Assembly: GCA_964016885.1 (NCBI GenBank)
Contig: OZ024745.1
Span: 83,762,001-83,826,000 of the forward strand
Length of the DNA stretch: 64,000 nt
Direction: 5' to 3'
DNA from: Eledone cirrhosa
Lineage: Eukaryota
The position numbers were made by a program, and so were the translations under genes. This document shows, one piece after another, positions 24,197-26,691 of this stretch. The notes under the pieces were generated by a model. The model ran no database searches, was not told the DNA's origin, and was given only the letters and a program-made list of their open reading frames with translations. Every line of letters starts with the position of its first letter. Position 1 is the first letter of the stretch.

Positions 24197-25786
24197 TTAT
24201 ATATATTGCATCCCTCGCCTGTCTTCAACGTTCGCACGTTAATTCTATAAAGCTTCAATTATATCCAGCCAATGCTAAAAGTTTAGATCATAGACAGTTT
24301 AGCGACAGCTACGAATTCCGCTAGTTAAACGCCCCATCGACTTGCTTCATTGAATTTATTTATTTTCATCAGAATGGTTGTTGATATCTAATGCATGAAA
24401 CATTTAATGAGACATGGAATTCATCGATGCAACAACATAATTTAAAATATGATATTGCATTTAGGAAATTAAACAGATGGGGCCTTTGCAACAGTTTTCA
24501 TGGCTGTGTCTCGCTGGAACACGGTGATACGTATGTGGGTTTGTATCAAGCATGACTATTTTAATTTACTGTTTGAGAATAATTCATGGAATAAAATGTT
24601 ATGGAATTTATCACAATCCAATTGAAAGACTGAGCTTCTAGTAATATAAATGCGAATTGTATTACTTACTAATATCGTCTTTCGCCGATAACCACTTCAT
24701 ACAGCATTTAATCCGGAGGAGGGGCAACTAACTCGACATTTCGCATTTGTTAGTTCACCAAACAACAGCTGCTTTGGCAAACGTGAATCATCTATTCTTA
24801 CCAGGTGGATGAAATTTAAGGATGACCTTGCCGAGATTAGAAGTCAGAACGTAACGAACCGAAGCATTAATAACAAAAGCAATAATAGAAACAAATAAAA
24901 TAACTTTGTTATCTTCCCTCCAAACATCACAGATATGCGTCTAATACATTTAAAGAAAAGGTTTCACACATGGAAATAAGGTCAGTAACTCCATTAAAAC
25001 ACATTTGCAGAATTACAATATTATAATACAATATTTACATAGACTTAGATATAAATCTGGAAATATTCTACATAAATACAGAAGTCTTAGCATTAAACAT
25101 TATACTCAAATCAAAATAGACAGTCCCTCTCAAAGTGATGGCGATACGAGTACATATAATACAACCATGCATACTGATATCGAAAATGGTATTCACTAAC
25201 CTAATATCTAAGCAGACGTTGCTGAAAATAAATATCTTGAAAATAATGACCAACGACACAATAATTCACACACACATACACACGCACATATATATATGTG
25301 TACATATATGTGTGTGTGTATATGTATAGATGTATGTGTATATGAATATGTGTATATGTATATATGTATGTTTATGTATGTATATATAAATATATATAAA
25401 ATCATAAACATACATATATACATATACACACATTCATATACACATACAGCTGTACATATACACATAAACATATACAAATAAATATATATACATGCATATA
25501 CACACACACACACATATATATATATATATATATATATATATATATAACAATATATTTAGAAACACACAGATACATGCGGACACACACATATACATGAATG
25601 CATCCGCACCCAACCGTGAGTTAAGGGTGCCAACTTCACCGATGTTGCTCAATGAATGACTGGGACAGACCAATCCGGTTGAACTAGACTGAACCAGTAT
25701 CAGAGTTAAAAATACATTATGAAGAGAGAAGAAACATTTAGATATAATTAGTAATAAAATGTATCATACCTAAACTGCTCCTAGAT

Positions 25787-25876
25787 TCCTCGACTACGTA
25801 GTTTCGTGGCATAAACAAAAACAATACATCATAAAGATATAGAGTCCCTGCGAGGTCTGCCGACTTATCAAGAGGA
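25787..25876 (-). ncRNA. Hammerhead ribozyme, U3-A8 variant (inverted copy)
   Basis: Reverse complement of 26382-26471. Confidence 0.65.
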
Positions 25877-26381
25877 TACCTCATTTTACTAGTCTCAAGA
25901 ACGCGTCTACACGACGTGAGAAAGAATCCCAAAAGGAGGAGGGGGAGATAGTCACGCGATATAACGGTCGAGAAACAGAGCTAAGCCTCTTATAACCCCG
26001 AAGAAAATACCACGGAGGCGGAGGGGGTATTTATATCGAAGCCGTAGAAGAGGTGGTGAAGGAGACGAGAAGTATGAGTAATGGAAGCTTTCCAGCAGTC
26101 CCCACACTTCAAAGATTGCTCGACCAGAGGGAGTTATTAACAATATATTTAGAAACACACAGATACATGCGGGGACACACATATACATGAATGCATCCGC
26201 ACCCAACCGTGAGTTAAGGGTGCCAACTTCACCGATGTTGCTCAATGAATGACTGGGACAGACCATAAGAGGCTTAGCTCTGTTTCTCGACCGTTATATC
26301 GCGTGACTATCTCCCCCTCCGCCTTTTGGGATGCTTTCTCACGTCGTGTAGACGCGTTCTTGAGACTAGTTAAATGAGGTA

Positions 26382-26471
26382 TCCTCTTGATAAGTCGGCA
26401 GACCTCGCAGGGACTCTATATCTTTATGATGTATTGTTTTTGTTTATGCCACGAAACTACGTAGTCGAGGA
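26382..26471 (+). ncRNA. Type I hammerhead ribozyme, U3-A8 variant with long helix II insert
   Basis: tcctc-TTGATAA-gt(c)ggca...tgccac-GAAA-ctac gtag-TC-gagga; GUC cleavage triplet; palindromic ACTACGTAGT helix III. Confidence 0.7.
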
Positions 26472-26691
26472 ATCTGGGAGCAGTTTAGGTATGATACATT
26501 TTATTACTAATTATATCTAAATGTTTCTTCTCTCTTCATAATGTATATATATATATATATATATATATATATATATATATATATATATATATATATATAT
26601 ATATATATATATATGCATATATATATATATATATATATATATATAAATATAATATTAAATAAATGGAAAACTATATTTATAAAACCATATT

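What the first reader, a model, noticed from the sequence alone, without database searches (positions are those of the whole stretch)
25545..26541. U3-A8 hammerhead with a long helix II insert and a 10-nt palindromic helix III
Seen: tcctc-UUGAUAA-[59 nt closed by gu(c)ggca/ugccac]-GAAA-cuacguag-UC-gagga on both strands of an A-B(rc)-A-B element with near-identical repeats. Known: the C3-G8 pair of the hammerhead core tolerates compensatory swaps. Inferred: a functional variant ribozyme that CUGANGA motif searches would miss, with ACUACGUAGU favouring dimer formation.
Basis: partly seen in the sequence, partly recalled or inferred. Interest (0 to 1): 0.75.

Follow-up and report, generated by a model that had tools for sequence, protein, structure and literature searches.

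The report
Penelope-type retrozyme, two start sites
This is one of thousands of copies of a 593-base non-coding repeat that carries a hammerhead self-cutting RNA motif with an already published core swap and was likely pasted in from RNA by a Penelope-like retrotransposon; its head-to-head copies end at two different fixed sites, one per arm, which likely records how that enzyme primes both DNA strands.

Summary
The hammerhead motif is real (26382-26471 +, 25787-25876 -), but the element is not A-B(rc)-A-B. It is a head-to-head insertion in (TA)n of two arms copied from a 593-nt tandem unit with over 7,000 copies. U3-A8 is fixed in the family (7,228 versus 0 C3-G8) and is published for natural and Penelope-like element (PLE) hammerheads. 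Helix I shows a compensatory change, the helix II insert is a conserved hairpin, and two copies co-fold as a double hammerhead. Cleavage and expression are untested. It is a non-LTR retrozyme, likely moved by a PLE; the scan found this family before on other DNA (e1-9515967). What is added here: 3' ends fall at two sites 163 nt apart, and two-armed copies use one of each (28 of 28 classifiable in an unbiased sample; 13 of 13 in an autonomous PLE of this genome). Both arms share one haplotype and run through the cleavage site. This suggests that a PLE dimer primes both target strands at different sites of one circular or multimeric RNA. A tail at one end only was noted before, qualitatively. 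The partner PLE was not identified.

The parts
25545..26265 (-). Long arm, 721 nt = 1.2 copies of the 593-nt unit; 3' end at site B (unit position 588-593, window 25545-25550)
   Evidence: contig loose ends into (TA)n at 25550
26265..26546 (+). Short inverted arm, 282 nt (unit 145-426); 3' end at site A; differs from the long arm at 4 bases; 1-nt overlap at the head-to-head junction 26265
25545..26137 (-). One full 593-nt unit, no long reading frame; folds stably as a circle on this strand only (z -5.2 sense, -0.9 antisense)
26382..26471 (+). Type I hammerhead motif, U3-A8 core 26387-26393, GAAA 26453-26456, predicted cut after C26466
26407..26443 (+). Long hairpin inside helix II, kept as about 15 bp in all subfamilies, mostly by A-U/G-U changes
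26456..26465 (+). 10-nt palindrome of helix III (3 bp plus tetraloop as monomer, 10 bp between two copies)
25787..25876 (-). Second copy of the hammerhead motif, predicted cut after 25792
25550..25712 (-). 163-nt 'tail' between site A (25712, unit 426) and site B (25550, unit 588)
   Evidence: loose ends at 25712 and 25550
25513..25544 (.). (TA)n target, left flank
26547..26655 (.). (TA)n target, right flank

Best explanation
This is a young copy of a high-copy 593-nt non-coding tandem repeat with a type I U3-A8 hammerhead motif, a non-LTR retrozyme that was likely reverse-transcribed into a (TA)n target by a Penelope-like element enzyme. Shown: unit, copy number, conserved helices, (TA)n targets, fixed 3' and variable 5' ends, two 3' sites used one per arm, same haplotype on both arms, arms longer than one unit that pass the cleavage site. 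Inferred: tandem copies are transcribed; neighbouring hammerheads pair through the palindrome, cut out 593-nt units, and these circularise; a PLE protein dimer binds the 163-nt tail, nicks both strands of (TA)n, and each nick primes at one of the two sites; both cDNAs run round the circle (or along an uncut multimer) with strand displacement and are joined head to head; loss of one cDNA leaves a single-armed copy ending at either site. This copy is likely a dead-end product: its own read-through RNA would fold into a long hairpin.
For: 8,071 and 7,228 exact motif matches, controls 0. Tandem arrays up to 2,907 nt on many contigs, all in (TA)n. Unbiased 52 loci: two-armed 28 A+B, 0 A+A, 0 B+B, 5 unclassifiable; other pieces 12 A, 11 B, 1 neither; best-hit set 18 of 18 A+B; older subfamilies 16 A+B, 6 unclassifiable. 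An autonomous PLE (RT and GIY-YIG matches) with U3-A8 hammerheads in both pLTRs shows the same rule: 13 A+B, 0 same-end, 4 unclassifiable. Opposite arms differ at 6 of 762 diagnostic cells, different loci at 47%; 29 locus-private variants lie in all passes of their locus. 35 of 83 arms exceed 593 nt and 5' ends do not pile at the cut site (8 of 145, p 0.49). Helix I U-A 22, U-G 3, C-G 11. Co-fold -60.1 versus 2 x -23.2 kcal/mol. A PLE enzyme in vitro nicks and extends both strands, starts at two internal sites and is modelled as a dimer (PMC11167929).
Against: No cleavage or expression data. No autonomous PLE sharing the unit's sequence among 50 GIY-YIG loci or by pattern; start-site likeness does not single out a partner. 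The exact hammerhead fold has 1.5% probability as a monomer, and helices I and III are absent from the circle's best fold. Only one pair covaries clearly and subfamilies are related, so the shuffle control overstates support. PLE hammerheads are often weak, need protein and are dispensable for insertion in vitro; 1 of 9 Xenopus retrozymes cleaved. A homogeneous tandem transcript explains the haplotype sharing as well as a circle. One insertion of a neighbouring family has the same end on both arms, with mirrored flanks (L154). In bulk, the in vitro study saw no start-site difference between strands.
Confidence: 0.72

Rival explanations
1. Same PLE-driven insertion, but the template is an uncut linear multimer from tandem source loci; the hammerhead is kept but cuts rarely or needs protein, and no circle is involved.
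For: RT passes the cut site without a trace; hammerhead mutants do not affect insertion in vitro; weak activity of PLE hammerheads.
Against: Core and helices are kept across subfamilies of 75-88% identity; private variants repeat in up to 8 passes on both arms; arrays have no fixed 5' start or phase; the sense strand folds at z -5.2 as a circle.
Confidence: 0.18
2. The inverted arm arises after or apart from target priming, by cDNA fold-back, antisense self-priming or DNA-level inverted duplication, and the two ends reflect endonuclease resolution or AT-rich microhomology.
For: Self-priming on an antisense template (PMC3846280) and endonuclease resolution of the tail (PMC8557442) were proposed; both ends are AT-rich; some junctions are near-perfect palindromes (L092; several PLE copies).
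Against: Most junctions join unrelated unit positions (466 and 145 here), either arm may be the longer, and a fold-back copy would not avoid the same end in 27 of 27 independent cases.
Confidence: 0.07
3. A DNA satellite or foldback transposon with a chance hammerhead-like motif.
For: No Rfam hit; the 116-nt fold is unremarkable.
Against: 0 hits in 60 shuffled windows; compensatory helix I; strand-specific folding; fixed 3' and truncated 5' ends; the same architecture in bona fide PLEs of this genome.
Confidence: 0.03

Closest known systems
Metazoan non-LTR retrozymes (PMC7229834, passages seen; bioRxiv 10.64898/2026.07.22.740005, parts 1-3 of 5 read)
   Same: Non-coding tandem units with a type I hammerhead, low GC, dispersed monomers to multimers; unit length inside the 51-972 bp range of the preprint; proposed PLE origin.
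   Different: U3-A8 core, 59-nt helix II, frequent head-to-head copies, (TA)n targeting and two fixed 3' sites; the words inverted, opposite and microsatellite do not occur in PMC7229834. No homologous pLTR found here.
Hammerheads of Penelope-like elements, including the U3-A8 Cercyon variant (PMC4209133, parts 1-2 of 4 read)
   Same: Type I, U3-A8, G10.1-C11.1, palindromic helix III, predicted dimer action, pairs on opposite strands 100-700 bp apart.
   Different: Palindrome of 10 nt and a long hairpin in helix II instead of a minimal motif; sits in a non-coding tandem unit, not in a pLTR beside an ORF.
PLE insertions with inverted pLTR and tail (PMC8557442 and PMC3846280, passages seen; PMC11167929, parts 1-2 of 4 read)
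   Same: 5' truncation, inverted partner arm, microsatellite targets, tail often at one end only, two internal RT start sites.
   Different: Tail 163 nt (68 nt in the local PLE) instead of 30-40; the one-site-per-arm pattern is without exception among classifiable copies; arms overlap and exceed one unit.
L1 twin priming (recalled, not read)
   Same: Both target strands prime, giving an inverted 5' part.
   Different: Here both priming sites are fixed and the two arms copy overlapping sequence.

Membership tests
Type I hammerhead ribozyme | Conserved core with a 3-8 Watson-Crick pair, GAAA and NUH site | tested here: met
   UUGAUAA/GAAA/GUC; 93 of 96, 25 of 27, 27 of 28 and 5 of 5 copies in four overlapping groups
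Type I hammerhead ribozyme | Three helices supported by variation | tested here: met
   Helix I one compensatory pair; basal helix II and helix III near-invariant, hence uninformative; inner hairpin one-sided changes
Type I hammerhead ribozyme | Match to an Rfam hammerhead model | tested here: not met
   likely due to the core swap and long insert (inference)
Type I hammerhead ribozyme | Self-cleavage after position 17 | not testable with these tools
   needs an assay
Type I hammerhead ribozyme | Loop I-loop II tertiary contact | not tested
   not examined
Non-LTR retrozyme | Tandem non-coding units, each with a type I hammerhead | tested here: met
   up to about 5 units in one arm (L097)
Non-LTR retrozyme | Dispersed, high copy, retroposition signature | tested here: met
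Non-LTR retrozyme | Expressed as monomeric circular RNA | tested here: inconclusive
   Only indirect support from read-through arms and repeated private variants
Non-autonomous Penelope-like element | Inverted arm, tail, microsatellite target | tested here: met
   same pattern in an autonomous PLE
Non-autonomous Penelope-like element | Sequence homology to the pLTR of an autonomous partner | tested here: inconclusive
   None in 50 loci out of 10,596 GIY-YIG candidates
Autonomous Penelope-like element | RT plus GIY-YIG reading frame | tested here: not met
   Stops in all six frames of the unit

The most novel reading that the evidence does not exclude
Penelope-like elements integrate by two-site twin priming: one enzyme dimer engages the two ends of the RNA tail and primes each target strand at a different fixed site of the same circular hammerhead RNA, so the long-known inverted repeat and one-sided tail are both the footprint of one coupled reaction. 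This retrozyme family would be the cleanest genomic record of it and of rolling-circle reverse transcription.
Probability: 0.5. Interest if true: 0.7.

Novelty: new member of a known kind. Interest (0 to 1): 0.45.

Why it matters
The ribozyme variant itself is known. The value lies in the insertion anatomy: how PLEs make their tandem/inverted structures and tails is stated as open, and the strict one-site-per-arm pattern with shared haplotypes gives a sharp prediction for an existing in vitro system. Practically, U3-A8 hammerheads are very abundant in this genome (over 7,000 in this family; 12,495 matches to the motif of one PLE family, 43 of 43 sampled being U3-A8) and are invisible to Rfam here, so ribozyme and retrozyme counts for such genomes are likely too low.

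Tried and rejected
Rfam at two thresholds: no hammerhead. Coding potential of the unit: none. C3-G8 or G3-C8 subfamily: 0 matches. Short-helix-II relative with the same palindrome: 11 matches, 9 deletion derivatives or old copies of this family and 2 unrelated-looking, none followed to an ORF. Partner PLE by BLAST and by start-site likeness: not found; an early impression that the L131 family's ends match best did not survive comparison with other families. Pile-up of 5' ends at the cut site: not significant. Apparent haplotype mixing inside arrays was a gap-placement artefact at unit 453-463, recomputed without it. Retrozyme-PLE chimera: L066 joins a retrozyme arm to the end of a small PLE insertion without (TA)n between, and one contig end of run X5 looks alike; two successive insertions explain L066 as well. 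Sequencing runs: no RNA holder listed; four contig sets laid show presence only. Two papers on dimer cleavage of PLE hammerheads and on 3-8 exchanges were not held and are known only through citing passages. Searches for octopus+Penelope+hammerhead and Penelope-like+twin priming gave no paper describing this family or the arm rule by listing (one hit, PMC6962438, checked by passage); subscription papers and supplements were not seen, so the rule may be in print.

Full report
Observation. A strict descriptor finds these two and nothing in 60 shuffled windows. Rfam does not see them. The window lies on contig C5 of a 3.0-Gb genome; I recall its SINE and microsatellites as cephalopod-like, which I did not test.

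True anatomy. Mapping 30 best-hit loci shows a head-to-tail unit of 593 nt without a long frame. The window copy is a minus-strand arm of 721 nt joined head to head, with a 1-nt overlap at 26265, to a plus-strand arm of 282 nt, inside (TA)n. The family is large: 8,071 matches to a 15-mer and 7,228 to the 5' core in context, controls 0. Most copies in the unbiased sample are 94-99% identical to the window unit, and older subfamilies are 75-88% identical.

Ribozyme. U3-A8 is fixed: no C3-G8 or G3-C8 version exists in context. In 36 chosen copies of four groups 93.5% of cells pair; helix I has U-A 22, U-G 3, C-G 11 at one position; the helix II insert is a 15-bp hairpin kept by one-sided changes; basal helix II and helix III hardly vary. 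These are few independent events. The hammerhead fold is 1.1 kcal/mol above the best monomer fold (1.5% of the ensemble), while two copies co-fold best as a double hammerhead, -60.1 against 2 x -23.2. The unit folds at z -5.2 as a circle on the sense strand and -0.9 on the other (40 shuffles each). The 3-8 pair does covary between families of this genome: U3-A8 in three PLE families (one with a damaged GAAA in the two copies seen), C3-G8 in two others and in the element next door. U3-A8 is published for natural hammerheads (PMC3088659, passages) and for Schistosoma PLEs (PMC4209133; the only hit for the term).

Two 3' sites, one per arm. I took the first 100 motif matches on contig C1 as an unbiased sample and merged overlapping loci into 52. 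3' ends fall at unit 426 (A) or 586-594 (B). Of 33 head-to-head pairs, 28 are A+B, none A+A or B+B, and 5 have an end at neither site; two of the 28 are one duplicated segment, leaving 27. Other pieces split 12 A, 11 B, 1 neither, so independent priming would give about 0.5^27 (my arithmetic). The best-hit set, biased to hold one A end, gives 18 of 18; 37 older loci give 16 A+B and 6 unclassifiable. The genome has 10,596 GIY-YIG candidates. L131 is a full PLE with a 938-residue frame matching RVT_1 (just under cut-off) and GIY-YIG, a linker CxxC motif typical of Neptune and U3-A8 hammerheads in both pLTRs. Among its first 30 matches (22 loci after merging), 13 two-armed copies are A+B, none same-end, 4 unclassifiable. 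The window's neighbouring element also has one short and one long end. One exception, in that neighbouring family, has equal ends and mirrored flanks and looks like a later inverted duplication (L154).

Template. Opposite arms differ at 6 of 762 diagnostic cells, passes within an arm at 7 of 826, different loci at 47%; 29 of 34 insertions show no mismatch. Private variants recur in all passes of a locus in 29 cases against 167 single-pass ones. 35 of 83 arms exceed one unit, and 5' ends show no excess at the cut site. The template was therefore one haplotype, longer than a cut monomer: a circle or an uncut homogeneous multimer.

Mechanism. An anole PLE protein nicks and extends both strands of AT-rich DNA, starts at two internal sites that delimit the tail, is modelled as a dimer, and its hammerhead needs the protein (PMC11167929). 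Combining this with the counts, I infer that a dimer binds the tail and primes each strand at a different site. That study saw no strand difference in bulk, which per-molecule coupling would also give. A tail at one end only is already drawn for PLEs, so the new part is the strictness, the same-template evidence and the extension to a retrozyme. The partner PLE is unidentified, and cleavage, expression and circles are untested.

Verdict. A real hammerhead motif of a known variant type in a new family of a known class, already met by this scan on other DNA. Interest 0.45.

Noticed in passing
window 26650-28830: A second head-to-head insertion of an unrelated family shares the (TA)n tract: about 810-nt arms at 96%, each with a C3-G8 hammerhead-like motif (28601-28668 +, about 26749 -) and an 8-nt AU palindrome; one arm ends near the equivalent of 28708, the other runs about 100 nt further. 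RNAfold does not give the hammerhead fold for it. Relatives in L025, L154, L192.
   Followed up: partly
window 58005-61369 and 57415-58056: A decayed two-armed PLE (RT frame 58540-59625) whose pLTR has a U3-A8 5' core but GCAA for GAAA at 61132, and a fragment of another PLE family with an intact U3-A8 motif at 57790.
   Followed up: partly
L202-L231, L131: In the autonomous PLE family, 20 of 38 5' ends fall in a 17-nt window about 70 nt upstream of the hammerhead cut (a likely transcription start) and 5 lie within 15 nt of the predicted cut, a weak hint of cleavage in vivo.
   Followed up: partly
593-nt unit, e.g. window 26409-26412: Changes derived in the young subfamilies are A>G at 16 of 127 sense-strand A but U>C at 8 of 213 U, while single-pass variants are even (10 and 11). 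This could reflect A-to-I editing of the RNA intermediate or selection for G-U pairs; polarity assumes the older subfamilies are outgroups.
   Followed up: partly
L066:3105-3230: A retrozyme arm is joined without (TA)n to the short end of a small two-armed PLE insertion.
   Followed up: partly
L131:about 490-550 (+): A further U3-A8 hammerhead-like motif with a 12-nt palindromic helix III and a short helix II, family unknown.
   Followed up: no
window 45857-56828: GC-rich block of non-LTR retrotransposon-like frames (endonuclease- and RT-like by eye) in partial tandem copies, minus strand.
   Followed up: no
window 39985-41859 and 18199-19002: A 625-residue stop-free frame resembling a PLE RT by eye, and a tandem array of a SINE-like repeat with 191-231 nt periods.
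   Followed up: no
runs X5, X6: Two other coded organisms hold the unit at high identity over most of its length; X6 is at very low depth.
   Followed up: no
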